DNA of 64,000 bases from assembly GCA_051861545.1 (NCBI GenBank), contig JBIMKP010000001.1, positions 96,820 to 160,819 on the forward strand, given 5' to 3'. Below, piece by piece: positions 2,449 through 38,900 of this stretch (the stretch's first letter is position 1; every line of letters begins with the position of its first letter). The DNA is from Bacteroidia bacterium. GTDB lineage: Bacteria > Bacteroidota > Bacteroidia > UKL13-3. The translations under genes were made by a program, and so were the position numbers. The notes under the pieces were generated by a model that saw only the letters and a program-made list of their open reading frames with translations, made no database searches and had not been told where the DNA came from.

Positions 2449-3711
2449 TTATTGCAAATCAGAATTCAATCTGTACCTACAAACCCTGTTATTTCCTTTA
2501 TCACAAACAAAGATGGTACGATTGAAGAAACAAATTCCAGTTGGGTCAACAAAGTTATAAGGACCACTTGCTTTTCCATCTGGGCCAGAGCCTCCAAAAG
2601 ATACAATAACTTGTTTCTTAAAAGTTGAATTTGCCGGAGGATTTACTCCTTCAAATCCAGTATTTGAGAAAACATAAATTGAATCTGTTCCACTATCTGT
2701 TACAAATAGGAAGCCATTTTCAGTAGGTGAAGCAAAAATATCTTCAGGTTTTATAAACCTATTACTTTCATACATGAAACGATCTGCCTTTGTTTTATCG
2801 AAGTTTAGAAAATTCGTATTTTCACTGTATAAATAACCTTGGTCTGGATCTTCTGTTACAGCAATTCCTAAAGCTCTAAACTCCAATTTTTTGTTTTGAT
2901 CATCTCCTAAAGCAAGAAAGAAATTACGTGAAGTGCTAATCCCAGAAATTCTTTGCGGAGGAGCTGCTAAAGTTGCTAAACCGCTAATTCCAACAGAAGA
3001 TTTTATACTTGATTCTAAAGGATTTAAACCACTAGAATAACCAATATTTTCGCCTTGTGCAGAGAAAATCAAAACACCATTATCTGGACGAGCCACACTA
3101 TTCAAATCATTTCTTGGCCCAGTTCTAGCAACATAAAGTGTATTATCGAAAAGTGTAGCTAAACCAGTAAATTTAACTGCAACATCATCATTACCTCTGA
3201 ATGAAGTATTTCTTCGACTTTCATCACATTGAAAATGTTTTAAAGTGTCGAGGTAAGTAGGATTTCCAGAACCAATTCCAGTAATATGGTAAATAGCAGC
3301 TAAACTAATTGAAGGGTTGGCTACTTTATCAGGGTAATATCTGCCAGCAACATAGGAATGTAATCTTCTATCTTGGGTAAAATCTGTAGCACCAGGAATG
3401 GTAAAGCGATAACTTAAATCCGCCTTTTGGTCAAAAACCAAAACTTCATTGTCATCAATAGTTGTTTCATCATTTTCAATTACTACATAAATCAATTCAT
3501 CATAACCATAAAAAACATCTAATGGCTTATTTACATTATTGATGAAAGGAAAAACAGGAACATAACCTACGTTATTTAAACCTGTATTAGGGTCGATATT
3601 ACCTTGATTAAAAACTTCTTGAGCAGTATCATTTTTCTTATCTCCCAAAAAACTGCAAGAGCTTAAGAAAAATGTGAAACCTATTAAAATATAATTTTTC
3701 AAAGTGAACAT
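2449..3711 (-). CDS. Lipoprotein with NHL-type beta-propeller repeat(s)
   Basis: N-terminus MFTLKNYILIGFTFFLSSCSF is a lipoprotein signal with a lipobox Cys. The C-terminal FVDPTGICFFNRTIFVCDKGNNRVCRY fits the NHL repeat pattern (P.GIa.d..g.iyVaD.gNnRI). Confidence 0.5.
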   Translation of the reverse strand: MFTLKNYILIGFTFFLSSCSFLGDKKNDTAQEVFNQGNIDPNTGLNNVGYVPVFPFINNVNKPLDVFYGYDELIYVVIENDETTIDDNEVLVFDQKADLSYRFTIPGATDFTQDRRLHSYVAGRYYPDKVANPSISLAAIYHITGIGSGNPTYLDTLKHFQCDESRRNTSFRGNDDVAVKFTGLATLFDNTLYVARTGPRNDLNSVARPDNGVLIFSAQGENIGYSSGLNPLESSIKSSVGISGLATLAAPPQRISGISTSRNFFLALGDDQNKKLEFRALGIAVTEDPDQGYLYSENTNFLNFDKTKADRFMYESNRFIKPEDIFASPTENGFLFVTDSGTDSIYVFSNTGFEGVNPPANSTFKKQVIVSFGGSGPDGKASGPYNFVDPTGICFFNRTIFVCDKGNNRVCRYRLNSDLQ

Positions 3712-3712
3712 A

Positions 3713-4714
3713 TTAACGAAGGTTAAATAACAATGAAAGTCGATGTGAATTGCCCATTCTAGACTTACTTACCAAACTATAATCAAACCTAAAATCTCCA
3801 AACTTTCTAGGAAGTCGAATACCTAAACCAGCAGTTGGAAAAGTATAAGCTTCATCACTACCAAATTCCCAGCCAGTTCTTGCATACAATAAACGTTTAT
3901 AACCATATTCAGCAGCAACTGCAAAAGTTTCATTATTATCTGTTGGATGGTTTAGCTGAGCTAATAATGTCAATACTTGATTCTTAGCATGCAAAGGGTC
4001 GAAAGCTCCGCCAATTCTAAACATACCTGGTGCAGAAACCTCACCAAAACTAGTTTTAATAATATCGCCAGAAAGATTTAACATATTTACTTCACCTGTT
4101 GGAGAAACATTTAAACCAAAATTCGTAAATGCAACGCCAAATCGAGCATGTTTTATTCCAATATCGTATGTTAAACCTAAATCAAAAAGGAAATTATTAA
4201 TTCGAACATCTCCAATTCCTTCATGTGCCCATTTGCTGCTTAATCCAAAACTAAAATTATCTGTTAAAATTTTAGCATAAGTTAAACCAATCAAAGTATT
4301 ACTTACGTTCACAAACCTTCCTGTACCCATTGGCTGAAACTCTGTAGTTTCTTCCATAGGTGCATAATTTATTGAAATAACCTGTACTCCGAGTGTACTT
4401 AAACTACCAGTTTTATAAGTTACGCCTAAAAAGTTGGCTGAATTTGCAGCAGTATATCTTGTATTTGAAACAAAAAATGAAGCCTTACTGCTATCACCCA
4501 CTGCAATTCCTGAAGGATTCCAAAACATAGCAGAAGGGTCTTTTGTAAATCCAGCAACAGCGCCAGAAAGCGCGCTAGAACGGGCATCTGGCATTATTTT
4601 CAAAAATTGCATTCCACTTGCACCGGTTCTGGAATTACCAAAAGTAGGTAGCAATTGAGCGCTAGAAGTTTGCAAAAAACAAACTAAACATAATATTGAT
4701 AGATAAAATCTCAT
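3713..4714 (-). CDS. PorQ/PorV-family T9SS-associated outer-membrane beta-barrel protein (PorQ-like by size)
   Basis: Signal peptide ...FLQTSSA|Q. The block GASGMQFLKIMPDARSSALSGAVAGFTKDPSAMFWNPSGIA matches the conserved N-terminal motif of the PorV/PorQ family (FL.i.P.AR..ALGG.....D.....NPA). The 333-aa length fits PorQ better than PorV. Alternating beta-strand-like composition continues to the C-terminal Phe/Arg. Confidence 0.5.
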   Translation of the reverse strand: MRFYLSILCLVCFLQTSSAQLLPTFGNSRTGASGMQFLKIMPDARSSALSGAVAGFTKDPSAMFWNPSGIAVGDSSKASFFVSNTRYTAANSANFLGVTYKTGSLSTLGVQVISINYAPMEETTEFQPMGTGRFVNVSNTLIGLTYAKILTDNFSFGLSSKWAHEGIGDVRINNFLFDLGLTYDIGIKHARFGVAFTNFGLNVSPTGEVNMLNLSGDIIKTSFGEVSAPGMFRIGGAFDPLHAKNQVLTLLAQLNHPTDNNETFAVAAEYGYKRLLYARTGWEFGSDEAYTFPTAGLGIRLPRKFGDFRFDYSLVSKSRMGNSHRLSLLFNLR

Positions 4715-6359: not shown

Positions 6360-6414
6360 GTAGGGAAAAATACAAAAACAATACCAAAAAATAAAAACTA
6401 AAGTATTAAAACGT

Positions 6415-6447
6415 AAAAAGGCGCGCAGCTAAGCTGCGCGCCTTTTT
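6415..6447. terminator. Strong bidirectional rho-independent terminator
   Basis: aaaaaGGCGCGCAGCtaaGCTGCGCGCCttttt. The GC-rich 11-bp stem in an AT-rich genome is flanked by an A-run and a T-run. It lies just downstream of the stop of the 2061-aa gene. Confidence 0.7.
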
Positions 6448-6466
6448 AACTTATTGAGAAATCAAA

Positions 6467-9400
6467 TTATTCTCTGATTAAAGTAATTGATCCTCTTACC
6501 GTTTGTTCTGTTTTACCTCTTAATCTATAAGTTAATATAAAGTAGTAGGTTCCATCAGGACAATCAGCACCAGAATTATTTACTTTACCATTCCAGATAT
6601 TAGTTGAATTGGTTGACTCAAATACTTGACCACCCCAACGATTGTAGATTTTTAAGTCGTACAATTCTTCACCCTTGATATCAATTTTGAAGAAATCGTT
6701 TTTGTTGTCACCATTTGGAGTAAATACATTCGGAATAGTAATATCAGTTACAAATGCATTACTTACCACTACACATGCTGAATCAATACAAGCATCAGGT
6801 TCTGCAGTATAAGCCCAAATACAAATTGTGAAATCACCAGTATCATTTCCGAAGTTTAATTCACCTAAGTTAAAGTTTGGATCATCATTTCCATTTACAG
6901 TAACTTCTTTGAATACACTATTGTCTTTGTTTCTAGTTACTCTCCAAATATATTTAACAGCTTCAGAGCTATCACTTAAGTTAGTTACATAGTACTTAGG
7001 TAATAACATTACCTCAGCTTTTAAATCAGCTTTTGATAATAGCGCTCTCATTGTAATAGTATCTTTATTCTCACATTCAGGTGCTCCAGTTAAGAACCTG
7101 GTAGAATGCATTACCAAATGATACACACCTTTGTTCTTAAAGTAGAAATTAAACGATGTATCTTGAGGTAAACTTGTTTTGAACAAAGTATCATTTATAA
7201 AAGTGTAATCAGCATTATAATTATATAATCTGTACTTAGTAATAGTATCATGTTGTGACCTATTTTTCAATTCGAATGGTTCACCCACACAAACCGCAGT
7301 ATCAGGAGTAAATAAACCAACACTATAAGGATTCTTCACATAAATCTTAATTGGTCTTTCAGTTCCACCTACAGTATCAGGAATAATAACTGGAGGACAA
7401 GAAGATGCTCCTGGAGAGCTAGCATCATAACCAACTGCATTTACATAGTATGTACCTTCTTGAGTGTATACAAATGTTACAGTATCAGGATTGTTTAATG
7501 CCAATTTTGGTGGCTCAAATGGAATACCTGAATTAATTAAAGTAGACCTTGTTGCGCTAAATCCAGCAGAGTCATCAGGGTAACTTACTATTCTTAATGT
7601 GTAAGGAACACAACCTAAAGTATCATTCAAAAGTTTGATTCTTGGACGTGGACCAGCAATAAAGATTTTTTCAGTTAATGTATCTTGACAACCTTGTTCA
7701 GTTTCAACAACTAAACGAACTGCATACCAACCATTTTTACGGTAATCATAAGTAGGATTTACTTCAATTGAACGGTATTCATCTTTACCATATCCGTAAT
7801 CACCAAACCACCATCTACGCTCTTTGAATCTATCACAAGAGAAACCATAGTTTTGGAAACACCAGTCATCTACAAAAGAAGCATCATTAAATTTAACTGT
7901 ATCACTGCATAAAAACACTCCTTTACTTGTATATCGTGCATTTGGTTTCACAACATTTACAAATTGGAAACAAGTATCCCAATATCCTAAACTATCTCTA
8001 GTAATCATTGAAACTTTAAAACGTCCTGGATCATTAAATTGGAAAGTTGGATTTTTACCATGTTTGTCAATTACACCATCTGATTGGAAATCCCAATAGA
8101 TTCTTTCATGATAGAAGGTATCAATTTTCTGACAAAGTAAAGCAGTAGCGGCTCCAACTGTCACGGGAGTTGAAACCCATGCTACAGGACAAGTACCAGT
8201 TGAAGGAACAACAAAATACTTCGTAGGATTTACGTATAATTTCATTGTATCAACAGGATAACCTCTCATAGCAAAACCATGGAAATCAATATCAACATAT
8301 TCTACTTCTCCAGCTTGTAAAGGCCTAAAAGGATTATAAATACCATTAGCCTTAGGATACCAATATCTAATAGAATCTTTAAACAATACAGTTTCTCCAA
8401 TACAGAATGTAGTATCATAATTGTTCTTCATATCTCTAATGAGGAAAGTATCAATTACACCAATTACAATTTGTCTCGAGGCAATGTTCTGACAATCTGT
8501 TGTAGTTGTCATCACATGTATAATAGGAGTGATATCATTTCTTCTGGTAAAACTACCTCCACCGGAAGCAACTTTCATCTCCCATGATGATTGAATATAC
8601 GTATGTGGCACAGGTTCCATTAAGAAGGCTGAGTCAATACGAATATTTACACGATTTATAGCTTGAGGCGCCATTGCCCTTAGAGGGTCATCACATCTCC
8701 AAACTGTATCATATCTTGTACTATCAAGAACTCTTATTCCGATTGGAATATGAGTTGCACTAATAATTGTCCAAGGTAAAGTTTGAACATTGTATTCAAA
8801 ACGGATACGACCTAAAGGCCAAGTATGCGCATCATATTGAAGAGTATCAAAAACACCAGGTTGACCTTTTCTTTCTACAGCAACAAAAGTATCTTCTGCA
8901 TTTGTATAGAAAGAATCCACTGTAGCATAATCATCACCCCAAACCCATGCATCTGATTTCACAAAATCTTGCTTAACTGTATTTAAGTTACCAAAGATTT
9001 TGTTTGTTTTTTCAGGATATGAAGGATAGAATGATTTTCCATGTAAGTAACAATATGGTTCACGATAATTAGGATTAGCTACATAAGCCAAAGCATTACC
9101 AGGGCCAATTACTGGATAGAATTTAGAAGTATCAAATTTATCGTAAGTAAAGTTAGCATCTAAGGTAATAAAGTGGAAGAAATTATGGTACCAAACAGTA
9201 TCAGAAGTACAACCAGGCAAATTAGATGTTGGTGAAGCATAACCATTTCCAGTAATAATACCTATGGTTACAAAACCACGTGGATCTTTTGGAAGATTTG
9301 AGTATTGAACTGGTGTATTTCCAGGAACATAATGTGTAACGTTTCTAGCACCATTAGGACTTTGCCAAATTAAATTTGGATTCCAGTTTGGACCATTGTA

Positions 9401-12400
9401 GAAAGCCGGCATATTGTATCCACCAGGTGTAGTTGTAGTACCTGTCATTGGTGAAGTTCCAGAGAAATCAACGAATGCATCTAACATACAACGAGTATTC
9501 TGACCATTCCAAACTGGATTCGGGTCATTTCTATCTGCAAATGAATCGTAGTTGATTAATAAGAATGTTCTGGCTCCGCAAGTAGGAGCTAAACCTGGAG
9601 AACCACCAGATCTGTCAAAAACGAATGTAGGATTACCGCCATTTTGAGACCTTAAACCAGGACACTCATCACCATCTTTTCCTAAACCAAAAGCATCTGG
9701 ATTCATTAATGGTAATTGAACAGTACTTGTACCGCCGCAATCCCACTCATCGACATAACCATAATCCTCTTCAACTAAAACAAATTTACCGACAGCATCT
9801 TGTTGAACAGTTATTGAATCCGGGCCACGGAAGAAAAATTTATTATTAACAATATTAATTCCTTCAGTATATCTTAAAGTTTGTAGTAAAATACCATCGT
9901 GGTACTCAGGAATACTAATGGTATTTCCAACCATATTGATCCTCAATAAATTTTTAACAGGATCAGCAGATTGGTTATTCACTGAATCTTTCATAAACAA
10001 TCTAACAGTATAACATTGTTGAATTCTTCTTTCGAAAGCATAATCATACAATGTTTTAGAAGAACCAGGCAATAAATCAGTTCCTCTGTATCTTCTGCTG
10101 CTTCCATCAGGCAGTTTATCTGTCATAATAGGAGTAATGAAAGCATTTGTTGGTCTTATTATTGATCCTGATGGAATCGTAAACTTATAAAAGCCTTTTA
10201 GATTAGCAAATGGATCCGGAATATCATTGTTTAATGTAATTTGTGTTTGAGGATCTAAATCCGCTGGCCACATTTCGATTGTATCGATTCTAGCTTGAGC
10301 AGAACCAGATGAGAACATTGGTTTATTCCACAACAATGTATCCATTGGATGAACCAATCTTTTTCCATTAGGATTACCTGGATTCCAAGTAACTAAATTT
10401 GGATCAGTTGTCCACTGAGTTGTATCATAAGGAGGGAAGTCATGTCCAAATTTATGCCATCTTAAAACAGTAGCCCAATTTTCATAACCATGAATAGGTA
10501 AAGTATCATGTGAGAATTTACAATTTACACGACCAGGATACAATTGACCATTTGCCCAAAATCTAGGTTCTGTGCGGTTATACATATCCTGCGCATTTGT
10601 GTAAGGAGGACCACCCATTAAGTCATTTGCCACTGAGAATGATGTACAAGCAGGAGCAAAATTATCTCCAAAATCCCACTTTTTATAAAGGTGATTTGAT
10701 TGGTAAATTGAAGAAGCATTTGTGAATTCCACAGGGAAAGATGGACCACATTGGTTCTTCAAGAATTTATTAATAACAATAGGAACTGGAGGTGCTTCAA
10801 TAGAAACTGCTGGACCAAGTATATTTACACCGTATCCAAATAATTGTCCTCTAGTAATTCTCTTGTTAAACTTTAAAGTATCGTCTTGGAAAAATTTCCA
10901 ATAACTAACTATACTATCTCTATATGGTTTCAACCAGCGATAAACTGGTAAATTACCTCCAGGATAATTAAAAGTAATTTGAGGTCCACCAACAGTAGCT
11001 GATAAAGCAAACTCATCACCATTTGCAAAAATTAAAGTATATCTTGTTAATGTATCAATACCAGTTACAGCGCCAATAGTTGTAAATTTAATTTGATAAC
11101 CTGGTTGTAAGTTATGGTTAGGAGAGATAAAGGTACCCATTGAATTGTTTACACCAGTAATATTGGTAGGAGCACCTAATCCATCAGGAATAAACCTATG
11201 AAGAGAAATTGAATCGGGAGCAGTATTACCTGGTCTCGGAGCGAAAATATATCCGTTAATTGTATTTAAACGTGGGTTTGCTACTGGAGGAAAAGTTGGA
11301 GAATTGTAACGCATTACATCATTAACAGTATCAATTCTCGACCAGAAATTAACTGTTTTTGCTGGTTTACCAGGACAGAAAACTGTTAAAGTAGGGAAAT
11401 ATTGACCTAAACCTTGGTATTTATAACAAGGAGAAACTTCATTTAATTTTTTATCAGAACCTGGAGGATTTGCATTTGGATCTGCGAAATCCCATAATAA
11501 TTGAAGCTGAGCATTAATTCCTTGAAGTGGATATTGATTATATAAACAAACACTAGCAGTATTACGATTCATAAAACAAACCGAATCAGCAATTGTATCG
11601 TTTTGATTGGTGCGTCTTGATCTAACATCATATTGAATAACAATATTCTCAGGTAGCACATCTCCACTTAAATTATAATCAAAACTATCTGCACAATTAA
11701 AGAATCTATGTTGAACAAATAATTTAGGTGCAAAAACTCCACCTCTAACGTAATTATGAGTAAAAGAAGTCCAAAAAGCAATATCTGCTGGAATAGGAGG
11801 ATTTCTTGAAGTATAAGAAGTTCCATCACCAAAATCCCATCTAAACCTACCAACTTGACCAATAGGAATAGCAGTTTTATTTACGAAAATATAAGGAGTG
11901 GTATCACATCTAGGCACACCAACCACCTGAAATTTCGCATCAATATTAGGAGCAACATAAACAAACTTTTGTTGTGAGTTTATACAACCAAGTTGGTCGG
12001 TGACTCTTAAAGTTACAGAATTTCTTCTACCACCAATCGGATAAATATGATTAATTGAAGAACCTCCAGGAGTTGGCATTGATTCTTCAGAACCATCACC
12101 CCAAACCCAGTATCTGCTGGCAATTGGCGAAGAAGGAGCTGGAGCCTGTGTTGAAAGGTCACCAAACACATAATTGTTACCTTTAAAACACTGCGAGTCG
12201 AAACTAGTTAAGTTCCAATTAACTACAGGTCTAGCATAAACTGTATCCCAATATTCGTAGTTTAAATCACCACGATTGGTAAATTTTGCTGTAACCTGAA
12301 TTTTGTAAGCGCCTGGTGCAGCATAGTTATGGATATAAAAGTTTCCAACAGGAGAGCCTGTTGTGATTGAAACTTTTGATCCGTCTCCTAAGTCCAGGTC

Positions 12401-12610
12401 GTAGCTTTTTACATCGGCTCTGTTAACCCCATTCAATAAAACAGTAAGTTCAAGTGTACCAGTAGTACCATTGAAACAGACAATTTTAGGTGAAGGATCT
12501 AACGTAACGCTCTGTGCAAAAGCTCCCATTGAAACTACCCACATGAGTAGCACCAACGATAGTCGATTTAATAGAGGTTTTATCATATTCTGTTGTATAG
12601 TTTTATTCAT
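6467..12610 (-). CDS. Giant (about 2050-aa) T9SS cargo/adhesin with PKD-like modules and a type-B CTD
   Basis: The C-terminus IPNVFTPNGDNKNDFF...IYNRWGGQVFE...WNG...GTYYFILTYRLRGKTEQTVRGSITLIRE matches the type-B CTD (TIGR04131). Multiple WDFGDG / WWFGDYGYG PKD-like beta-sandwich signatures are present. The track start at 12652 is a TTG. The in-frame ATG at 12610 gives a proper signal peptide MNKTIQQNMIKPLLNRLSLVLLMWVVSMGAFA|Q. Confidence 0.85.
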   Translation of the reverse strand: MNKTIQQNMIKPLLNRLSLVLLMWVVSMGAFAQSVTLDPSPKIVCFNGTTGTLELTVLLNGVNRADVKSYDLDLGDGSKVSITTGSPVGNFYIHNYAAPGAYKIQVTAKFTNRGDLNYEYWDTVYARPVVNWNLTSFDSQCFKGNNYVFGDLSTQAPAPSSPIASRYWVWGDGSEESMPTPGGSSINHIYPIGGRRNSVTLRVTDQLGCINSQQKFVYVAPNIDAKFQVVGVPRCDTTPYIFVNKTAIPIGQVGRFRWDFGDGTSYTSRNPPIPADIAFWTSFTHNYVRGGVFAPKLFVQHRFFNCADSFDYNLSGDVLPENIVIQYDVRSRRTNQNDTIADSVCFMNRNTASVCLYNQYPLQGINAQLQLLWDFADPNANPPGSDKKLNEVSPCYKYQGLGQYFPTLTVFCPGKPAKTVNFWSRIDTVNDVMRYNSPTFPPVANPRLNTINGYIFAPRPGNTAPDSISLHRFIPDGLGAPTNITGVNNSMGTFISPNHNLQPGYQIKFTTIGAVTGIDTLTRYTLIFANGDEFALSATVGGPQITFNYPGGNLPVYRWLKPYRDSIVSYWKFFQDDTLKFNKRITRGQLFGYGVNILGPAVSIEAPPVPIVINKFLKNQCGPSFPVEFTNASSIYQSNHLYKKWDFGDNFAPACTSFSVANDLMGGPPYTNAQDMYNRTEPRFWANGQLYPGRVNCKFSHDTLPIHGYENWATVLRWHKFGHDFPPYDTTQWTTDPNLVTWNPGNPNGKRLVHPMDTLLWNKPMFSSGSAQARIDTIEMWPADLDPQTQITLNNDIPDPFANLKGFYKFTIPSGSIIRPTNAFITPIMTDKLPDGSSRRYRGTDLLPGSSKTLYDYAFERRIQQCYTVRLFMKDSVNNQSADPVKNLLRINMVGNTISIPEYHDGILLQTLRYTEGINIVNNKFFFRGPDSITVQQDAVGKFVLVEEDYGYVDEWDCGGTSTVQLPLMNPDAFGLGKDGDECPGLRSQNGGNPTFVFDRSGGSPGLAPTCGARTFLLINYDSFADRNDPNPVWNGQNTRCMLDAFVDFSGTSPMTGTTTTPGGYNMPAFYNGPNWNPNLIWQSPNGARNVTHYVPGNTPVQYSNLPKDPRGFVTIGIITGNGYASPTSNLPGCTSDTVWYHNFFHFITLDANFTYDKFDTSKFYPVIGPGNALAYVANPNYREPYCYLHGKSFYPSYPEKTNKIFGNLNTVKQDFVKSDAWVWGDDYATVDSFYTNAEDTFVAVERKGQPGVFDTLQYDAHTWPLGRIRFEYNVQTLPWTIISATHIPIGIRVLDSTRYDTVWRCDDPLRAMAPQAINRVNIRIDSAFLMEPVPHTYIQSSWEMKVASGGGSFTRRNDITPIIHVMTTTTDCQNIASRQIVIGVIDTFLIRDMKNNYDTTFCIGETVLFKDSIRYWYPKANGIYNPFRPLQAGEVEYVDIDFHGFAMRGYPVDTMKLYVNPTKYFVVPSTGTCPVAWVSTPVTVGAATALLCQKIDTFYHERIYWDFQSDGVIDKHGKNPTFQFNDPGRFKVSMITRDSLGYWDTCFQFVNVVKPNARYTSKGVFLCSDTVKFNDASFVDDWCFQNYGFSCDRFKERRWWFGDYGYGKDEYRSIEVNPTYDYRKNGWYAVRLVVETEQGCQDTLTEKIFIAGPRPRIKLLNDTLGCVPYTLRIVSYPDDSAGFSATRSTLINSGIPFEPPKLALNNPDTVTFVYTQEGTYYVNAVGYDASSPGASSCPPVIIPDTVGGTERPIKIYVKNPYSVGLFTPDTAVCVGEPFELKNRSQHDTITKYRLYNYNADYTFINDTLFKTSLPQDTSFNFYFKNKGVYHLVMHSTRFLTGAPECENKDTITMRALLSKADLKAEVMLLPKYYVTNLSDSSEAVKYIWRVTRNKDNSVFKEVTVNGNDDPNFNLGELNFGNDTGDFTICIWAYTAEPDACIDSACVVVSNAFVTDITIPNVFTPNGDNKNDFFKIDIKGEELYDLKIYNRWGGQVFESTNSTNIWNGKVNNSGADCPDGTYYFILTYRLRGKTEQTVRGSITLIRE

Positions 12611-12655
12611 TTTCAATTTCGCTAACATACGTTTAATCTCCCAAATTTTCAAACC

Positions 12656-13540
12656 TTATCTGTTTAAGAAAATAAAGCCGCCAATAACCTTTACATTCTC
12701 TTTTCCTTTGAGTTGATATTCAAGTATATACCTATATTCTCCAATTTCTGCAAGTTGTCCAGAACCTAAAACATGACCTTTCCATTTTACATTCACATTT
12801 TCTGTTTCAAAAACAAGTACTCCTTTTTTGGTGAAAATTCTCAAATGGTAAAAATCTACTGGTGGCATTTCAATCACCAATTCATCATTTAAACCATCGC
12901 CATCTGGAGAAATAGCATTGTTTACAACCGGATAATCCTTTCTATTTTCAGTTTCAACTGGTTTCACTTCGTCCTGTTTAACTTCTTCAGTAGTTTCAAT
13001 TTCAGGATTACCTTCCACAGTCTCTATTTTTGCATCTTTACTAACTAAAATATCAAACTTCGAAGCAATTGGTTCATGAACGGAAGTTTTTATTACATGT
13101 TCATTTTCATCAAGAACTTCTTTATTAAATGAATTTAGTTTCTGTTCGTCTTTTACTTCTGTATTAGGAATTGGACTTGGTTTTGTAAACTTAATAACTG
13201 GGCTTTGGGAAATTTCATTAGGACTTTCAATAATTGGAGTAGTTGCTATATTTTCAGATTTTGCTGATTCAGTTGTTTGTGTTTGCACAATATTTTCCGA
13301 AACAGGAGCTTTCTCAAATCCGCCTAATAAAAAATAGCTCGCTGTAGCAACAGCAAGGATTCCAGCAACAATGGTTGATTTAACAGCAATTGATAAACCT
13401 GAAATTGTATTTATTGATGCAGGGGCAGCCGCTGAACCAAGGTTTGAACTGATTTGAGTCCAAACATCAGCAGGAACATCAGGTGTAAAATCCTGCATTC
13501 TTTCCTTTAAGAGTTCATCAATGTTATTAATATCTTTCAC
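12656..13540 (-). CDS. Anti-sigma-factor-like single-pass membrane protein with a C-terminal type-B-CTD-like domain
   Basis: The N-terminus (DELLKERMQDFTPDVPADVWTQISSNL) resembles the cytoplasmic domains of Bacteroidetes ECF anti-sigma factors. One TM helix is present (STIVAGILAVATASYFLLGG), followed by an E/T/K-rich linker. The last ~90 aa (NNAISPDGDGLNDELVIEMP...WKGHV...GEYRYILEYQLKGKENVKVIGGFIFLNR) follow the type-B CTD pattern. GTG start 3 nt after the sigma-factor stop and 3 nt before the adhesin start. Confidence 0.6.
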   Translation of the reverse strand: MKDINNIDELLKERMQDFTPDVPADVWTQISSNLGSAAAPASINTISGLSIAVKSTIVAGILAVATASYFLLGGFEKAPVSENIVQTQTTESAKSENIATTPIIESPNEISQSPVIKFTKPSPIPNTEVKDEQKLNSFNKEVLDENEHVIKTSVHEPIASKFDILVSKDAKIETVEGNPEIETTEEVKQDEVKPVETENRKDYPVVNNAISPDGDGLNDELVIEMPPVDFYHLRIFTKKGVLVFETENVNVKWKGHVLGSGQLAEIGEYRYILEYQLKGKENVKVIGGFIFLNR

Positions 13541-13543
13541 TTT

Positions 13544-14089
13544 CTATATTTTACTTTTTTGCAGTTCATTCCAAGTTTGAGTAAAAATTACTCTTGCTCG
13601 AGACAATTGAGATTTGGAGGTTCCTTCACTAATATTTAATAATTCTGCAATTTCGGCATGCGTATAACCTTCTATTGCATACAAGTTTAAAACAGTTTTG
13701 TAGCCAGTTGCCATTTTACTCAAAACATCTAAAATTTCCTTTTGAGTAATTTTCTCAATTGCAAATCCTTGAATTTCATGATTATAGGCCTGATCTACAT
13801 CACTTTGTTCCATATAGACTTTATTTACTCTATAATGTTCTAAAGCTGTATTTATAAATACCCTTTTAAGCCAACCTTCCAAAGAACCTTTGTTACTGAA
13901 CTGATTCAATTTTGCAAAAACTTTTATAAAACCTTCTTGCAAAATATCCTTGGCATCATCTGGTGAATTACTGTACCTCAAACAGATACCATACATAGTT
14001 CTACTAAAAAACTCGTAAAACGCTTTTTGCGCTTTCGGGTCATTTTTCAAACATCCATGTATTATGGCATCATCAATTGGTTTGTTCAC
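13544..14089 (-). CDS. ECF-type RNA polymerase sigma-70 family factor
   Basis: Region-2-like LQEGFIKVFAKL and region-4 HTH YTHAEIAELLNISEGTSKSQLSRARVIF. ~180 aa. First gene of a three-gene minus-strand operon. Confidence 0.8.
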   Translation of the reverse strand: MNKPIDDAIIHGCLKNDPKAQKAFYEFFSRTMYGICLRYSNSPDDAKDILQEGFIKVFAKLNQFSNKGSLEGWLKRVFINTALEHYRVNKVYMEQSDVDQAYNHEIQGFAIEKITQKEILDVLSKMATGYKTVLNLYAIEGYTHAEIAELLNISEGTSKSQLSRARVIFTQTWNELQKSKI

Positions 14090-14227
14090 TTTTATGGTGC
14101 TTGGTATTTAGATGAAACTATTTTAGTAATGGTTGCAAGTTGCTGTTAAAATTTCTTAAAATTCTCCTAAGCTGCAAATGAATAGGCCGAATTTATTAGA
14201 AGTTTAGTATTTTAGTAAAAAAATTCC

Positions 14228-17035
14228 TTGAGAAAAATACTACTCATTTTAAGCTTTTGTACTTTTTTGTCCAATAAAAATTTTGGAAAGGAACACATAC
14301 AATCTCTTCCCAAGACTATAAAAGATTTCGAATTCATAGAAAATAAAGGTCAATGGAATAATGAGATTTTATTTAGAGCAACTTCGTACAATACTGATTT
14401 TCAAATAAAGGAAAACTCAATTCAATATTATTTCTTTGATGAAAATGCATTTAAAATGCATCACCATAAAAATGAAAATAAAGAAATTGCAAATTCAAAT
14501 CTACTTGTACATGGAATCAACATGAATTTAATAGGAGCTGAAAAAGGGGCTGATTTAGATTGGCAGGCTTCGAGTCATTATTACAACTTTTTTCAAGGAA
14601 ATAATCAAAAAAACTGGGCAAGTGGAGCTAAATCAACAAAAGAAGTTTTATTAAAAAATGTTTATTCGGGTATCTCTTTAAATGTAGCTTCAACAGAAAC
14701 TGGAATTAAATATGAATTCAGGTGTAAGCCAAATTCAAATCCTGAAAAAATAGTATGGGAAATAAACGGCGCCAATAAAATTGAATTGGAATATGGAGAT
14801 TTAAGTATTTACCATACTTATGGGAAAATGAAAGAATCGAGACCATTTTCATATCAAATAATAAAAGGGAAAAGAATTCAAATTGATGTAGATTTTATTT
14901 TAGTGGGTAATCAAATAAAATATAAAATCCCTCAAAATTACAACCCTAATTATGAGCTAATTATCGACCCAGATTTGGTTTTCTTAACTTATTCTGGTTC
15001 AACAGCCGATAATTTTGGTTGTACAGCAACACCGGGAGAAAATGGGACTTTGTATACGGGTGGGATAACCTCAGAACCTAGTTCAATAATTCCAGATGGA
15101 AAATACCCAACTACAGCAGGTGCATTTCAGCTCAATTATGCTGGGGGTGATACATCAGAAGGTGGCGATTTAAGTACTTTTCCTTGTGATATAACTATTA
15201 GTAAATATTCCTCTGATGGAACTCAGCTGCTTTGGGCTACTTACCTTGGCGGTTCAAATAATGAAATCCCTCATAGCTTGGTAGTCGATAAATTTAACAA
15301 CCTTGTTATTTTCGGCACAACGTATTCTAAAAATTTCCCTGTATCTAGTTCAGCTTATGATACAAGTAATAATGGAAGAACCGAAATAATAGTAACTAAA
15401 TTTTCTTCTGATGGTATGAGACTTGCTGGCTCTACTTATATTGGAGGCTCGAATAATGATGGACTTAATGACAATAGCGCCACAGTCTATTTCTTTGCAG
15501 ACGAATACAGAGGTGATGTAATTTGTGATGAAAATGGAAAAATTTTAGTTGCAACTGCAACAAAATCCGACAACTTTCCAGTTGTTGGAAGTCCTATTCA
15601 AAACCAACTTAAGGGCTCGCAAGATGGAGTAATACTTCAACTCGATAGTCAATTAAGAGTATTAGAATTTTCTACCTATTTAGGTGGAACTGGAGTTGAG
15701 GCACTTTATAGCATCGATATTTCAAAAAACAATGAAATATTTGTTTCTGGTGGAACAGGAAGTATAGATATGCCAAATATTTCTACAAATGCCTTAAGAA
15801 AAGAGAATTTGGGCGGAGATGTGGATGGTTTTATTTATCACTTAAACAGAAACATAAGTACAATTATTAATGCAACTTATTTTGGAACAGATAAATACGA
15901 CCAAATATATTCCTTAGACATTGACCCTGACAATCAAATTATTGTGGTAGGACAAAGTTTAGGAAATTTGCCAATTACATCAGGAGTTTACAGCGTTCCT
16001 AATAGTAAACAATTCATAAGTAGCTTAAGCCCTGATTTAAGTAAGTTAAACTGGTCTACAAATTTTGGTTCAGGAAGAGGAGTTATAGATGTTACGATAA
16101 ATGCTTTTCTGGTTGATGATTGTGGTAGAATATATCTGAGTTCATGGGGTGGTGAATTGAGTGATAAACCTAATTCTTCAACTTTAGGTTTAGAGGTAAC
16201 TCCTGATGCCTTCCAAAATAAAACCGATGGATCAGATTTTTACTTGATGTGTTTAGATAAAAATGCTAGTTCCCTTTTATACTCAACCTTTTTAGGAGGT
16301 AACTCACCCAACGCTAGTGGCGATCATGTTGATGGTGGTACAAGTCGATTTGATAAAAAAGGAATTGTTTACCAAAGTATGTGCGCAAGTTGTCCAAGAG
16401 GTAATTTAACTGGATTTATCTCAGATTTAAAAACTACTCCAAACTCTTTCAGTCCAACCAATAAAAGTCCACGTTGTAGCAATGCCGGTTTGAAATTCGA
16501 TTTTCAAATTAAAAGTGCAGAAATTACTTGGTATGCAGATACCTGTACTTCACTATTTACCTTTACGGCAGAAGCTAAAAATGCCTATAGTTTTTATTGG
16601 AAATTTCCTGATGGAACAGAATCAACTGAAAAAAATCCTGCATTAATAATCAATCCTGATTTCTATAATAAACCTATAATGCTGATTGTTAGTCCGGGTA
16701 CAGTTTGTGCAGATACAGCATTTGGCACTGTTAGTTTACCCGATTCAATTACGAAATTAACAATACCAAATGTATTTACTCCAAATGGAGATGGAGTGAA
16801 CGATTATTTTAAAATTGAAGGATTATTAAGTCAGTGTGATGAGGCTGCTGTTGAAGTTTATAACCGTTGGGGCCAGTTAATTTTTTCTGATGATAAAACG
16901 TATTTTGCTTGGGATGGTAAAGACAAAAACGGGATGGAAATAAGTGATGGAGTTTATTTCATTATGTTAAAATCGAAAAAGAAAAACGATACTGAATTTA
17001 AGGAAATTCATTCAACATTAACCTTAATTAGGTAA
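14228..17035 (+). CDS. T9SS cargo with SBBP beta-propeller repeats and type-B CTD
   Basis: Repeated YLGGS.N(D/E)... / ...NFPV motifs match SBBP beta-propeller repeats. The C-terminus IPNVFTPNGDGVNDYFKIEG...VYNRWGQLIFS...WDGKDKNG...GVYFIMLKS...STLTLIR is a type-B CTD. Apparent TTG start. Divergent from the ECF sigma operon across a 138-bp intergenic region. Confidence 0.8.
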   Translation: MRKILLILSFCTFLSNKNFGKEHIQSLPKTIKDFEFIENKGQWNNEILFRATSYNTDFQIKENSIQYYFFDENAFKMHHHKNENKEIANSNLLVHGINMNLIGAEKGADLDWQASSHYYNFFQGNNQKNWASGAKSTKEVLLKNVYSGISLNVASTETGIKYEFRCKPNSNPEKIVWEINGANKIELEYGDLSIYHTYGKMKESRPFSYQIIKGKRIQIDVDFILVGNQIKYKIPQNYNPNYELIIDPDLVFLTYSGSTADNFGCTATPGENGTLYTGGITSEPSSIIPDGKYPTTAGAFQLNYAGGDTSEGGDLSTFPCDITISKYSSDGTQLLWATYLGGSNNEIPHSLVVDKFNNLVIFGTTYSKNFPVSSSAYDTSNNGRTEIIVTKFSSDGMRLAGSTYIGGSNNDGLNDNSATVYFFADEYRGDVICDENGKILVATATKSDNFPVVGSPIQNQLKGSQDGVILQLDSQLRVLEFSTYLGGTGVEALYSIDISKNNEIFVSGGTGSIDMPNISTNALRKENLGGDVDGFIYHLNRNISTIINATYFGTDKYDQIYSLDIDPDNQIIVVGQSLGNLPITSGVYSVPNSKQFISSLSPDLSKLNWSTNFGSGRGVIDVTINAFLVDDCGRIYLSSWGGELSDKPNSSTLGLEVTPDAFQNKTDGSDFYLMCLDKNASSLLYSTFLGGNSPNASGDHVDGGTSRFDKKGIVYQSMCASCPRGNLTGFISDLKTTPNSFSPTNKSPRCSNAGLKFDFQIKSAEITWYADTCTSLFTFTAEAKNAYSFYWKFPDGTESTEKNPALIINPDFYNKPIMLIVSPGTVCADTAFGTVSLPDSITKLTIPNVFTPNGDGVNDYFKIEGLLSQCDEAAVEVYNRWGQLIFSDDKTYFAWDGKDKNGMEISDGVYFIMLKSKKKNDTEFKEIHSTLTLIR

Positions 17036-35939: not shown

Positions 35940-38900
35940 ATGAAACCCTACTTAAGAATTCTACAATTATTAGTTTTTTGTTTTCTATCAAACATTAATA
36001 ATTCGATTTCTCAATGTATTACCTGTACAACTGTTAATTCATTAAACAACGGATTAATCTGGTGCCATCCTTTCAGTGGAAATGCAAACGATGTCACAGG
36101 CAATGGGTATGATGGTTTTGTTTCTGGTGCAACTTTAATGCCAGATAGAGCTGGAAACCCAAACTCAGCTTATAATTTCGATGGATTTTCAAGTTATATT
36201 TCTTTATCGAAGAATATTCCTAGTACTTTAACCACTTTTTCAATAAGCATGTGGTTAAAACCAGGTAGCAATTCTGGAAATGGATTCATTTTTTGGGAAG
36301 GAGATAATATATGTGGAAATGATATTTACCTTGTTTTACAGAATTCCACATTAAAACTTGGAGCAAATAAAGCGGCTAGTCTTGGCGGTTTAGGAAATTT
36401 ATCTCATACTTACACTGTGCCAAGTCCATTTATAAACACTTGGACTCATATAGTTTGGGTAATGGAGCCAACAACATCTAAACTTTATGTAAATGGAAGT
36501 TTAGCCACAACAATCAATTCAACAGGGAACGGTTCAGGTTATAATTTTCCAGCAAGTTATGGCAGTAAATATGATGGAAATACGGGTTCTTGTGGAGCAC
36601 CAAGGCAATTTTATTACCAAGGAGGAATAGATGATGTTCGACTTTACAATAGGAGCTTAAGCGCAAGTGAGGCATTAAGTTTGTTTAATATTTCCGCAGT
36701 AAGTCCACCTATACTTAATTCATTATTAGTTGATAGAAACATTTGCAAAGGAGATTCTATTCTAGCAAATCCAAGTGCTACAAATGCAAATAGTTATTTG
36801 TGGACTCCAAGTCTTGGCGTTAGTAATAATAGCATTCTTAATCCATACTTTAAACCTTCAGTTACTACTAATTATATCCTAAGTTTAAGTAATAATGTAT
36901 GTACAATAAGAGATACTTTTACAATTAATGTAAACTCTTTAAATATTGAATTAGGACCAAATAGAAACATCTGCAAAGGAGATTCAATTCGAATTAATCC
37001 AAGTATTATCAATGCAATAAATTTTAACTGGACTCCTAACATTGGTTTGAGTAATTCCTCTATTAGTAATCCATATTTTAAGCCAATTCTGACTACAAGT
37101 TATATTTTAACAGCAAGTAACAATCAATGTTCGATAAAAGATACATTTACAATAAATATAAATCCATTAAACCTTGAATTAGGGCCGGATAAAAACCTTT
37201 GTTTGGGTGATTCAATGCAAATGAACCCTGTAATAAATAATGCAAATAATTTAATATGGTCACCTCCCATAAATATAAGCAATGTTAATATTGCAACTCC
37301 ATTTGTAAAACCATCAATTTCAAGTAAATATTATCTTAATGTAAGCAATGGAACTTGCAGTTTAACTGATTCGATTTCAATTACAATAAATACTATTTCA
37401 TTAGATATTGGTTTAGATAAATCAATATGTTTAGGCGATAGTGTAGAAATCAATCCTACTGCTGGAGCAGGTACTTTTATATGGTCACCAAGTTTGGGCC
37501 TGAGTTCAATAATCACTAAAAATACCATCGCCAAACCAATTACAAGCACTAAATACTATTTAAATCATGTTAGTGGTGCTTGCAGTTTAACTGATTCTAT
37601 AAGTATTGCGGTTAATTCCCTTTCAGTTGAACTAGGAGTTGATAAAGGCTTTTGTTTAGGAGATAGCATTCAACTAAATCCAGAAACAAATAATTCAACA
37701 ATCTACAGCTGGAGCCCGACTAATTGGTTATCTGATCCACTAATTAAGAATCCTTTCTTCAAACCCGATTTACCAACAAAATACTTCCTAGCCGTTTCAA
37801 ATGGCATTTGTTCTGCAATCGATTCTATTATAATTAGTCCTAAATCTATTAGCGTAGAAGCAGGTATGGATATAGTAATTTGTTCAGGTGATAGTATAAA
37901 GTTAAATGCTGTTGCCGGTGCAGGTATTTATGCATGGTACCCGAAAATAAATATAAGTGATACAAGCATTTCTAATCCTATTATTAAACCAACAAGTGAT
38001 ATAAAATACTATTTAAAATATACTGAAGATGGATGTGAGAACATTGATTCAATATTTGCAATTGTCAGGCAGATAAGTTTGAATCTTTCTAAAAATGAAA
38101 CCATTTGCTTAGGAGATAGTGTTAAAATTTTAGCAAGTCAAACAGGAGCTAGCAATATAGAGTGGACACCAGCAATCGGTCTTTCTAATACAGATATCAT
38201 TCAACCATGGGCTAAACCAAATTCCACCCAAAAATATAAAATTCAACTTGATGATGGAGTTTGTTTTAAATCAGATAGTTTAACAATTTATGTTTTTGAT
38301 AAAAATTCCTATACCAAAAATAATGATACAAGTATTTGCCGTGGAAATAGCATTCAATTAAATATTTTAGGAGGTACAGCCTGGAATTGGATAAATCCTT
38401 ACATGCTAAACTCAAATAATATTCCAAATCCAATTGCATCTCCTCAAGTTGATACTTCATATATCGTAAAAATCTCAAATAATAACTGTTCAATCTACGA
38501 CACTATTTCACTTAAAGTAAATCAATTACCTGCAATTCAAGCAGGTAATGATACATTTCATTGCTTTAACAAATCGGTCCAAATATTTGGAAATAAAATG
38601 AACTCTTTACTTACCTACTGGGAGGCAAATCCCTATTTTCAGGATACCTTCGAACTAAATCAAAACGTATCTGTAAGTAATAACTATGAATTTGTATTAA
38701 TTGGAAAAAGTAATGACTGTTACAATTATGATACCATTCGAGTAGAGGAAAAACCGCTGGTAAATGCTGATTTTAAAATTAATCGAGAAGAAGGTTATCC
38801 TCCGCTAAACATAGTTTTAAATAATACCTCACCTATTACGCCATATTTTAATTGGAACTTTAATAATAACAATATTTCTACTGGGGGTAATTTAGACACC

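What the first reader, a model, noticed from the sequence alone, without database searches (positions are those of the whole stretch)
6467..14227. ECF sigma factor, CTD-bearing anti-sigma-like protein and a 2061-aa T9SS adhesin form one tightly coupled operon, divergent from a second T9SS cargo gene
Three minus-strand genes are separated by only 3 nt each. The sigma stop is at 13544. The anti-sigma-like GTG start is at 13540 and its stop at 12656. The adhesin start region is 12652-12610. A GC-rich terminator follows only after the giant gene (6415-6447). The 138-bp region upstream of the sigma gene is shared with the divergently transcribed 935-aa SBBP/type-B-CTD cargo gene (14228-17035). This layout suggests a dedicated ECF sigma/anti-sigma module controlling expression of very large T9SS-secreted surface proteins. 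Regulation of individual T9SS cargo by a co-encoded ECF pair is not part of the standard T9SS picture.
Basis: partly seen in the sequence, partly recalled or inferred. Interest (0 to 1): 0.6.

Follow-up and report, generated by a model that had tools for sequence, protein, structure and literature searches.

The report
Anti-sigma factor carrying a T9SS sorting domain
A small sigma factor gene is followed by its membrane-bound inhibitor, which unexpectedly ends in the tag that Bacteroidota use to export surface proteins. This inhibitor belongs to a large, unrecognised family that may couple gene control to the type IX secretion system.

Summary
The giant gene most likely starts at ATG 12586, giving 2039 aa and a 69-nt gap after the anti-sigma gene, not 3 nt.

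The middle protein is very probably a real anti-sigma factor.
- Its roughly 35-aa N-terminal motif defines at least 1238 protein clusters.
- 122 of the 131 top members end in a CHU_C (T9SS type B) domain.
- In 16 of 16 unrelated metagenome loci with upstream DNA, an ECF sigma gene sits immediately upstream.
- The same motif occurs in beta-barrel proteins built like the Dma anti-sigma factors of Bacteroides. That makes this a Dma-like design with a secretion tag in place of the barrel.

An ECF-type promoter, TGCAACC-N16-CATCTAA, lies upstream of the sigma gene. It is the only intergenic copy in the window.

The link to cargo is weaker.
- A CHU_C cargo gene follows the pair in about 4 of 9 lineages.
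- The 69-nt spacer before the giant gene is 94-99% conserved and looks like a separate promoter.
- The divergent gene has no ECF motif and is a neighbour only in close relatives.

Verdict: a new variant of a known kind. How it works is inferred, not shown.

The parts
14108..14137 (-). ECF-type promoter upstream of the sigma gene. TGCAACC (14137-14131), a 16-nt spacer, then CATCTAA (14114-14108). It ends 19 nt before the sigma start codon.
   Evidence: Exactly one match in the window, with 0 expected by chance. The same motif at the same spacing lies upstream of the sigma gene in L005, L007-L011, L083, L091, L092, L096, L105 and L106. That it is a promoter is inferred.
14090..14227 (.). 138-bp intergenic region shared by the sigma gene and the divergent gene. 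Its length is fixed and it is under purifying selection.
   Evidence: It is 82-86% identical to L001, L002, L007 and L010 with no indels. Third codon positions of the sigma gene are 70-75% identical in the same comparisons.
13544..14089 (-). ECF sigma factor, 181 aa, GTG start.
   Evidence: Sigma70_r2 at 50 bits, Sigma70_r4_2 at 57 bits and TIGR02937 at 86 bits against a cutoff of 42.9. It is 41% identical (132 bits) to the sigma factor next to a Dma-like beta-barrel protein.
12656..13540 (-). Anti-sigma factor, 294 aa, GTG start. It has an N-terminal motif, one TM helix, a disordered tether and a type B CTD.
   Evidence: Family alignments A2 and A3. In the AF2 model, helices span residues 7-16, 24-35 and 54-72; pLDDT is below 50 for residues 35-194; a beta-sandwich at 205-292 has pLDDT mostly above 90. 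An ECF sigma gene lies immediately upstream in every locus examined.
13436..13540 (-). Codons 1-35: the conserved N-terminal motif NI[DE]ELxK..F..F.P.VP..VW..I, proposed to bind the sigma factor.
   Evidence: I7, L10, F18 and W27 are invariant or nearly so. An exhaustive profile search found 1238 clusters at E<=1e-3. No Pfam family matches it. The first 40 aa of Dma1 suffice to bind Das1 (PMC10927553). Binding here is inferred.
13319..13381 (-). Codons 54-74: the single transmembrane helix.
   Evidence: Mean Kyte-Doolittle hydropathy is 1.6-2.0 over 19-residue windows. AF2 places a helix at 54-72.
12659..12928 (-). Codons 205-294: CHU_C / T9SS type B C-terminal domain.
   Evidence: Pfam CHU_C scores 51.6 bits against a cutoff of 27. 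TIGR04131 scores only 19.1 against 35. The domain is 35% identical, without gaps, to the giant protein's CTD.
12587..12655 (-). 69-nt non-coding spacer, almost invariant across orthologues. It contains TTG (12652-12650), 20 nt, then TATGTTAG (12629-12622). It is a probable internal promoter and 5' leader for the giant gene.
   Evidence: It is 94-99% identical in L001, L002, L007 and L010, whereas the anti-sigma DNA is 57-66% identical. The core TA(T/G)GTTAGC is kept in L005 and L011. It has no predicted RNA structure (z = +0.99) and no Rfam match. Promoter function is inferred.
6467..12586 (-). Giant T9SS type B cargo, 2039 aa from ATG 12586. It has a signal peptide, PKD repeats and a C-terminal CHU_C domain.
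   Evidence: PKD_4 at 90 bits and CHU_C at 81.8 bits, plus TIGR04131 at 50.8 bits. The start is supported. Orthologues occupy the same position in L001, L002, L007 and L010, and PKD-bearing fragments occupy it in L005/L006 and L011.
6414..6448 (-). Intrinsic-terminator-like hairpin that closes the transcription unit.
   Evidence: 16-bp stem with 9 GC pairs. The only Rfam matches here are sub-threshold hits to leader and terminator hairpin models.
14228..17035 (+). Divergent T9SS type B cargo with DUF7948, SBBP and CHU_C domains. It is a clade-specific neighbour, not part of the core module.
   Evidence: Domains. It is present in L001-L011 but replaced by RNase R in L083 and absent from this position in L064. 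No ECF motif faces it.

Best explanation
Genes 13544-14089 and 12656-13540 encode an ECF sigma factor and its cognate single-pass anti-sigma factor.

[quoted passage not shown] It has a roughly 35-40-aa cytoplasmic sigma-binding motif, one TM helix and a tether of more than 100 aa that is predicted to be disordered. Where Dma proteins carry an outer-membrane beta-barrel, this family carries a T9SS type B sorting domain. About half of the members also have a PKD domain before it.

The sigma factor most likely transcribes its own operon from TGCAACC-N16-CATCTAA.

In this clade a 2039-aa PKD/CHU_C cargo gene follows with no terminator. It is probably reached by read-through. It probably also has its own promoter in the ultra-conserved 69-nt spacer.

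The most likely role of the CTD is to dock the periplasmic end of the anti-sigma factor onto the T9SS, through a PorP/SprF-like outer-membrane partner or the translocon. Sigma activity would then report the state or load of the secretion system.

Shown here: gene order, domains, family size, sigma adjacency and promoter-motif conservation. Inferred: sigma binding, membrane topology, docking, the nature of the signal and the regulon.
For: - Domains and gene layout.
- Synteny of sigma, anti-sigma (CHU_C) and a large cargo gene persists down to 23-30% anti-sigma identity in L005, L011, L064 and L083.
- An N-terminal profile of 74 positions found 1238 clusters in 1.84 billion representatives. Of the 131 top members, 122 have CHU_C and about 60 have PKD.
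- In 16 of 16 metagenome loci with upstream DNA, an ECF sigma gene similar to the window's (E 1e-27 to 1e-52) ends between 17 nt inside and 41 nt before the family member's start.
- The same profile hits beta-barrel proteins with 3-5 tandem N-terminal motifs (P0019, P0037, P0046, P0129). P0129 follows an ECF sigma gene with a 4-nt overlap, and that sigma is 41% identical to the window's.
- Literature on Dma: the first 40 aa of Dma1 bind Das1, and the architecture is N-terminal domain, TM helix, disordered region, barrel (PMC10927553; 10.1101/2025.09.27.678952).
- Literature on type B CTDs: they bind PorP-like outer-membrane proteins (PMC9143113).
- The AF2 model fits: two short helices, a TM helix, a low-confidence tether and a confident beta-sandwich. 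The tether is 129 aa and rich in E, K, T, S and P.
- The promoter motif YGCAACY-N17-RTCT lies upstream of the sigma gene in the window and in 9 of 9 re-scanned family loci.
- No terminator-like site lies between the anti-sigma gene and the cargo gene in the window, L083 or L096.
- The anti-sigma CTD resembles its own cargo's CTD more than the other five CHU_C CTDs in the window (57 bits against 25-37).
Against: - There is no experimental evidence for this family.
- The N-terminal domain matches no curated anti-sigma model.
- I did not tie the motif to the Dma1 accession itself. The link rests on proteins with the Dma architecture.
- TIGR04131 scores below its cutoff on this protein.
- Cargo adjacency is not general: about 5 of 9 lineages lack it.
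- No second ECF promoter lies upstream of any cargo gene.
- The 69-nt spacer looks like an independent promoter.
- The CTD resemblance fails in L064, where the downstream cargo ranks 98 of about 105. The comparison panel was also biased towards CTDs that resemble the anti-sigma CTD.
- Foldseek found only generic Ig-like folds.
Confidence: 0.55

Rival explanations
1. The sigma/anti-sigma pair is real, but its position next to the giant cargo gene is incidental synteny. The giant gene would be transcribed from its own promoter in the 69-nt spacer, and the sigma regulon would lie elsewhere in the genome, for example in T9SS or envelope genes.
For: - In the wider family the gene after the anti-sigma gene is CotH, a second sigma factor plus UvrC, PGA_cap or an M16 peptidase.
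- The spacer is 94-99% conserved and contains TTG-N20-TATGTTAG.
- The window is rich in cargo genes, with 7 CHU_C proteins in 64 kb, so chance adjacency is not negligible.
- In F. psychrophilum an ECF-type motif drives T9SS component genes and one sigma/anti-sigma pair (PMC9723704).
Against: - A CHU_C cargo gene directly follows the pair in four separate lineages whose passenger domains are unrelated: PKD, NIDO, Ig_7/PKD and Ig_7/PKD.
- No terminator-like site separates the genes in the window, L083 or L096.
- The anti-sigma CTD is closest to its own cargo's CTD in the window clade and in L083.
Confidence: 0.25
2. The CTD-like domain is an ordinary periplasmic Ig-like sensor domain that the T9SS never touches. 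Signalling would proceed by ligand binding and regulated proteolysis, as in conventional ECF anti-sigma factors.
For: - TIGR04131 scores below its cutoff, at 19.1 against 35.
- The protein has no signal peptide and is anchored in the inner membrane, so it is not a conventional T9SS substrate.
- The fold search returns only generic beta-sandwiches.
Against: - Across the family the C-terminus carries the canonical cargo signature IPNxFTPNGDGxNDxF...WDG...G.Y.Y. It scores up to 9e-22 on CHU_C and always sits at the extreme C-terminus, as a sorting signal must.
- About half of the members are PKD plus CTD, a miniature cargo layout.
- The tether is long enough to cross the periplasm (inference).
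Confidence: 0.3
3. One reading: a dedicated ECF module that directly controls both flanking giant cargo genes from the shared 138-bp region.
For: - The 138-bp region is conserved, at 82-86% against 70-75% for third codon positions.
- The divergent DUF7948 gene keeps its position across the whole window clade.
Against: - The only ECF-type motif faces the sigma gene, and none is on the + strand of the region.
- The divergent gene is absent from this position in L064 and L083.
- Its CTD is among the least similar to the anti-sigma CTD, ranking 95 of about 105.
Confidence: 0.1
4. The middle protein is simply a small T9SS cargo or hypothetical protein, as public annotation says, and has no role as an anti-sigma factor.
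For: Family members are named 'T9SS type B sorting domain-containing protein' or 'gliding motility-associated C-terminal domain-containing protein'.
Against: - It has no signal peptide. About 50 hydrophilic residues precede the only hydrophobic helix.
- An ECF sigma gene lies immediately upstream in 16 of 16 loci, often overlapping.
- The N-terminal motif is shared with Dma-like proteins.
Confidence: 0.03

Closest known systems
[quoted passage not shown]
   Same: - The gene lies directly after a Bacteroidota ECF sigma gene.
- The protein has a short N-terminal sigma-binding region (40 aa suffice in Dma1), one TM helix and a long disordered periplasmic tether.
- The C-terminal module is destined for the outer membrane.
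- My N-terminal profile also retrieves proteins with the Dma architecture.
- The window sigma is 41% identical to the sigma factor next to one of those proteins.
   Different: - The C-terminal module is a T9SS type B sorting domain (CHU_C beta-sandwich, sometimes preceded by PKD), not an eight-stranded outer-membrane beta-barrel.
- Any contact with the outer membrane would have to go through a T9SS partner.
- Dma-like proteins often carry 3-5 tandem N-terminal motifs. This protein carries one.
- The known Dma output is vesiculation. Nothing is known for this family.
PorA / PorXY-SigP signalling in Porphyromonas gingivalis (PMC7712824; PMC12152298)
   Same: A protein bearing a T9SS CTD feeds information about the secretion system into an ECF sigma factor.
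   Different: - PorA is a secreted surface protein that acts through the PorY kinase and PorX.
- SigP has no membrane anti-sigma factor.
- Here the CTD sits on the anti-sigma factor itself.
- I did not test for homology.
FlgM / sigma-28 flagellar checkpoint (general knowledge)
   Same: An anti-sigma factor carries the export signal of a secretion machine. This offers a way to couple transcription to the competence of that machine.
   Different: - FlgM is soluble and is exported whole through the flagellar type III system.
- This protein is anchored in the inner membrane, and the machine is the T9SS, which acts only across the outer membrane.
- The resemblance is an analogy, not homology.
Conventional T9SS type B cargo such as SprB/SprF and PG1035/PorP (PMC9143113)
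   Same: A CHU_C-type domain at the extreme C-terminus, often preceded by PKD. The protein is 35% identical to the CTD of the adjacent cargo.
   Different: - It has no Sec signal peptide.
- It has an N-in TM anchor and a cytoplasmic motif, and it is coupled to a sigma factor.
- No PorP/SprF gene is adjacent. A PorV/PorQ-family gene lies 1.7 kb downstream.

Membership tests
ECF (group 4) sigma-70 factors | Sigma-2 and sigma-4 domains only, about 180-200 aa | tested here: met
   Sigma70_r2 at 50.1 bits, Sigma70_r4_2 at 56.6 bits and TIGR02937 at 86.2 bits against a cutoff of 42.9. Length 181 aa.
ECF (group 4) sigma-70 factors | Autoregulatory promoter with an AAC-type -35 element and a CGT/CAT-type -10 element upstream of its own gene | tested here: met
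   TGCAACC-N16-CATCTAA at 14137-14108. It is conserved at fixed spacing across the family. Activity was not tested.
ECF21 group (Dma-associated sigma factors) | Assignment by the ECF-classification HMMs | not testable with these tools
   No ECF group models were available, and NCBIfam gave only superfamily-level hits. Indirect evidence: 41% identity to the sigma factor next to a Dma-like protein.
Dma (dual membrane-spanning anti-sigma) family | Encoded immediately after an ECF sigma gene | tested here: met
   The gap is 3 nt here. The same adjacency holds in 16 of 16 other loci.
Dma (dual membrane-spanning anti-sigma) family | Short N-terminal cytoplasmic sigma-binding region | tested here: inconclusive
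   The conserved 35-aa motif is shared with proteins of Dma architecture. Binding itself, and identity with the Dma1 N-terminus, were not tested.
Dma (dual membrane-spanning anti-sigma) family | Single TM helix followed by a long intrinsically disordered region | tested here: met
   Helix at residues 54-72. pLDDT is below 50 for residues 35-194. The tether is 129 aa and rich in E, K, T, S and P.
Dma (dual membrane-spanning anti-sigma) family | C-terminal eight-stranded outer-membrane beta-barrel (OMP_b-brl_2) | tested here: not met
   The C-terminus is a CHU_C beta-sandwich, with no OMP_b-brl hit. The protein is therefore not a Dma member in the strict sense.
T9SS type B cargo | C-terminal type B sorting domain (Pfam CHU_C / TIGR04131) | tested here: inconclusive
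   Pfam CHU_C passes, at 51.6 bits against 27. TIGR04131 fails, at 19.1 against 35. Relatives score up to 9e-22 on CHU_C.
T9SS type B cargo | N-terminal Sec signal peptide, so that the whole protein reaches the periplasm | tested here: not met
   About 50 hydrophilic residues precede the only hydrophobic segment, at 54-74. No cleavable signal is visible (by inspection).
T9SS type B cargo | T9SS-dependent export and binding to a PorP/SprF-like partner | not testable with these tools
   This needs genetics or biochemistry. No PorP/SprF gene is adjacent. A PorV/PorQ-family gene lies at 3713-4714.
Class I anti-sigma factors (ASD, zf-HC2, RskA, FecR) | Recognisable anti-sigma domain at the N-terminus | tested here: not met
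   No Pfam or NCBIfam hit on residues 1-98, even at E<=10.

The most novel reading that the evidence does not exclude
The anti-sigma factor acts as a cargo mimic and secretion checkpoint. Its type B CTD would be engaged by the T9SS, through a PorP/SprF-like adaptor or the SprA translocon. That engagement, or the pulling and cleavage that follow, would release the sigma factor. Transcription, including that of the co-encoded giant cargo, would then be tuned to T9SS capacity. This would be a FlgM-like logic for the T9SS, operating in more than a thousand Bacteroidota lineages whose proteins are currently annotated as plain cargo.
Probability: 0.25. Interest if true: 0.85.

Novelty: new variant of a known kind. 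Interest (0 to 1): 0.66.

Why it matters
T9SS regulation is known mainly from PorXY-SigP in one pathogen. How gliding and environmental Bacteroidota match cargo expression to secretion capacity is an open question.

A widespread anti-sigma family that carries the T9SS sorting signal would be a direct physical link between the secretion machine and an ECF sigma factor. It would also extend the recently described trans-envelope Dma design to a second way of reaching the outer membrane.

The finding also corrects annotation. At least 1238 clusters (at 50% identity) contain this N-terminal motif. The members I checked are named as T9SS cargo or gliding-motility proteins, yet they are probably regulators. 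This inflates cargo counts and hides a regulatory system.

The hypothesis can be tested with a simple pulldown, an anti-sigma deletion and T9SS mutants in any tractable member.

Tried and rejected
- The search for related loci with the full-length family alignment was swamped by ordinary CHU_C cargo. Only L011, L064 and L083 were true members.
- The search for homologous proteins with the N-terminal alignment returned just two fragments.
- Pfam and NCBIfam found nothing on the N-terminal 80-98 residues.
- Foldseek against the PDB found only generic Ig-like, FN3, PKD and FlgD folds, all at E>0.02.
- Rfam and RNA folding of the 69-nt spacer showed nothing. I rejected the idea of an RNA element there.
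- I searched for a second ECF promoter upstream of the giant gene, the divergent gene and the other four cargo genes, using strict and relaxed patterns. None turned up in an intergenic position.
- I tested whether the anti-sigma CTD always copies the CTD of its own cargo. This holds in the window clade and in L083 but not in L064, and the comparison panel was biased. I did not adopt it as a rule.
- I tested whether the 69 nt are coding, as an N-terminal extension from ATG 12626 or TTG 12652. I rejected this because conservation is equal on both sides of that ATG, the few changes would be non-synonymous, and L011 has stop codons there.
- I could not assign the sigma factor to ECF21.
- I did not link the motif directly to the Dma1 accession. 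The last protein search reached Flavobacterium 'outer membrane beta-barrel protein' homologues only.

Full report
**1. Observation**

- sigma factor, 13544-14089(-), 181 aa, GTG start
- middle protein, 12656-13540(-), 294 aa, GTG start
- giant ORF, 6467-12652(-), mechanical TTG start
- divergent ORF, 14228-17035(+), 935 aa

The sigma stop and the anti-sigma start are 3 nt apart. The shared intergenic region is 138 bp.

A hairpin with a 16-bp stem (9 GC pairs) at 6448-6414 follows the giant gene. No terminator-like site lies between the anti-sigma gene and the giant gene. Two weak hairpin matches fall inside the sigma and anti-sigma coding sequences.

The domains are as claimed:
- sigma factor: Sigma70_r2 and r4_2
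- middle protein: CHU_C only, at residues 206-282
- giant protein: PKD repeats plus CHU_C
- divergent protein: DUF7948, SBBP and CHU_C

One correction concerns the giant gene's start. Orthologue alignment shows conserved coding only from ATG 12586 (MIKPLLNRLSLVLLMWVVSMGAFA|QS). In L011 the sequence upstream of the equivalent ATG contains stop codons. A gene caller run on the identical sequence gives 2039 aa starting 69 nt after the anti-sigma stop. The second junction is therefore 69 nt, not 3.

**2. The middle protein is an anti-sigma factor of a large, unrecognised family**

The first search found only 15 full-length homologues. All of their contigs keep the order: divergent DUF7948 gene, sigma, CHU_C protein, giant PKD/CHU_C gene. 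This holds even for a member only 26% identical. A genome scan added L011, L064 and L083, at 23-30% identity. Each sits right after an ECF sigma gene.

The family alignment shows four parts:
- a sharply conserved N-terminal motif, NI[DE]ELxK..F..F.P.VP..VW..I
- a hydrophobic helix
- a variable, low-complexity stretch
- a conserved CHU_C domain

AF2 gives helices at 7-16, 24-35 and 54-72. pLDDT is below 50 for residues 35-194. A confident beta-sandwich spans 205-292.

I searched a profile of the N-terminal 74 positions exhaustively against 1.84 billion representative proteins. It found 1238 clusters at E<=1e-3. Of the 131 best full-length hits, 122 carry a C-terminal CHU_C domain and about 60 carry a PKD domain. 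No Pfam or NCBIfam model covers the N-terminus.

A metagenome scan with the N-terminal motif alone returned 18 loci. In all 16 loci that include upstream DNA, an ECF sigma gene similar to the window's (E 1e-27 to 1e-52) ends between 17 nt inside and 41 nt before the start of the motif protein.

Public names for members are 'T9SS type B sorting domain-containing protein' and 'gliding motility-associated C-terminal domain-containing protein'. None is called an anti-sigma factor.

**3. Relation to the Dma family**

The few profile hits without CHU_C include P0019, P0037, P0046 and P0129. These have 3-5 tandem copies of the same motif, a TM helix, a long low-complexity region and a C-terminal outer-membrane beta-barrel. 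P0129 overlaps the end of an ECF sigma gene by 4 nt, and that sigma is 41% identical (132 bits) to the window sigma. Its homologues are common in Flavobacterium, where they are named 'outer membrane beta-barrel protein'.

This is the architecture published for the Dma anti-sigma factors. Those have an N-terminal sigma-binding region (40 aa suffice for Dma1 to bind Das1), a TM helix, a long disordered tether and a C-terminal barrel. They are encoded next to ECF21 sigma factors (PMC10927553; 10.1101/2025.09.27.678952).

The window protein therefore works like a Dma protein in its first three modules. It fails the defining fourth feature, because it has a T9SS type B CTD in place of the barrel. 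I did not align it to Dma1 itself, and I could not run the ECF group HMMs.

**4. Promoter**

The 138-bp intergenic region is 82-86% identical to those of L001, L002, L007 and L010, with no indels. Third codon positions of the sigma gene are 70-75% identical in the same comparisons.

The region contains TGCAACC-N16-CATCTAA at 14137-14108. This matches once in the window, with 0 expected by chance. The same motif at the same spacing lies upstream of the sigma gene in distant members: L005, L011, L083, L091, L092, L096, L105 and L106. This is what an autoregulated ECF promoter looks like.

Relaxed searches found no other intergenic copy. None faces the giant gene, the divergent gene or the four other cargo genes of the window, and none precedes the cargo genes of L083 or L096.

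**5. The link to cargo**

A CHU_C cargo gene directly follows the pair in four lineages:
- the window clade (PKD)
- L064 (NIDO, 1215 aa)
- L083 (Ig_7/PKD, 1397 aa)
- L096 (Ig_7/PKD, 618 aa)

No terminator-like site intervenes in the window, L083 or L096.

In the other lineages the next gene is a CotH kinase, a second sigma factor plus UvrC, PGA_cap or an M16 peptidase. The cargo link is therefore enriched but not a defining feature.

The window is also unusually rich in cargo, with 7 CHU_C proteins. This raises the chance of accidental adjacency.

The anti-sigma CTD is 35% identical, without gaps, to the giant protein's CTD (57 bits). It scores only 25-37 bits against the other five CHU_C CTDs in the window. 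L083 shows the same preference, with its own cargo ranking 2 of about 105. L064 does not, with its cargo ranking 98. The comparison panel was biased towards CTDs that resemble the anti-sigma CTD.

The 69-nt spacer before the giant gene is 94-99% identical across orthologues whose anti-sigma DNA is only 57-66% identical. It contains TTG-N20-TATGTTAG, close to the Bacteroidota housekeeping -33/-7 pattern TTG...TAnnTTTG. The core TA(T/G)GTTAGC persists in L005 and L011. It has no RNA structure and no Rfam match.

I read this spacer as a probable internal promoter and leader. The giant gene is then likely expressed from two promoters, not from one tightly coupled operon.

The divergent DUF7948 gene is a neighbour only within the close clade. 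RNase R occupies its place in L083.

**6. Mechanism**

The steps are ordered from best to least supported.

(a) The N-terminal motif binds and sequesters the sigma factor at the inner membrane. This is inferred from strict adjacency and from the Dma analogy.

(b) The sigma factor drives its own operon from the conserved promoter. This is inferred from the motif and its conservation.

(c) Transcription reads through into the giant cargo gene in this clade. This is plausible but unproven.

(d) The 129-aa tether lets the CTD reach the outer membrane. There it would bind a PorP/SprF-like partner or the translocon, as type B CTDs do (PMC9143113). Sigma activity would then depend on the state of the T9SS. 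This is speculative.

The nearest precedents for the logic of step (d) are Dma1, PorA-PorXY-SigP (PMC7712824) and FlgM.

**7. Novelty**

Full-text searches combining anti-sigma, T9SS, type B CTD, ECF21 and Dma found no description of an anti-sigma factor bearing a CTD. Subscription-only literature was not searched.

I class the finding as a new variant of a known kind: a Dma-like ECF anti-sigma factor.

Noticed in passing
window 12587-12655 (-): The 69-nt non-coding spacer is 94-99% identical across orthologues, although the adjacent anti-sigma gene is only 57-66% identical at the DNA level. It contains TTG-N20-TATGTTAG. A TTAGC-containing box recurs in the equivalent spacer of L005, L011, L083 and L096.
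   Followed up: partly
window 3713-4714 (-), with 2449-3711 (-): A PorV/PorQ-family outer-membrane protein (NF033709, 163 bits against a cutoff of 90) lies 1.7 kb downstream of the giant gene. Next to it is a 420-aa ORF with a weak NHL-repeat hit. thiL and a 147-aa ORF lie in between. The arrangement is syntenic in L002 and L010.
   Followed up: partly
window 35940-51053 (+): Four consecutive CHU_C cargo genes of 1115, 1352, 688 and 1645 aa carry Laminin_G_3, Ig_7 and PKD domains. In total about 23 kb of the 64-kb window encodes type B cargo.
   Followed up: partly
window 13541-13546 (-): The sigma and anti-sigma genes are in the same reading frame, separated only by TAG-AAA. The 3-nt gap is kept in all close orthologues. 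Stop-codon read-through would produce a sigma/anti-sigma fusion like Dma3. Distant members have gaps of -17, -8 or +2, so the shared frame is not general.
   Followed up: no
window 18117-20570 (-): An 817-aa hybrid sensor with TPR repeats, HisKA, HATPase_c and a receiver domain lies two genes from the locus. It is syntenic in L001, L002 and L007. No link to the module was tested.
   Followed up: no
P0019, P0037, P0046, P0129 (L109 3001-4542): Dma-like beta-barrel proteins carry 3-5 tandem copies of the N-terminal motif. The CHU_C type usually carries one copy. A few CHU_C members, such as P0034, P0081 and P0112, have two.
   Followed up: partly
window 14138-14170 (-): An A/T-rich block, TTAGGAGAATTTTAAGAAATTTTAAC, lies just upstream of the -35 element. 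Its TTAAGAAA core is also present in L005 and L011. It could be an UP element or a regulator binding site.
   Followed up: no
window 13338-13357 (-): A terminator-like hairpin (8 pairs, then CTATTTTTTA) lies inside the TM-coding part of the anti-sigma gene. It is probably a chance match: the scan found 9 such sites in the region against 5.0 +/- 2.3 expected.
   Followed up: no
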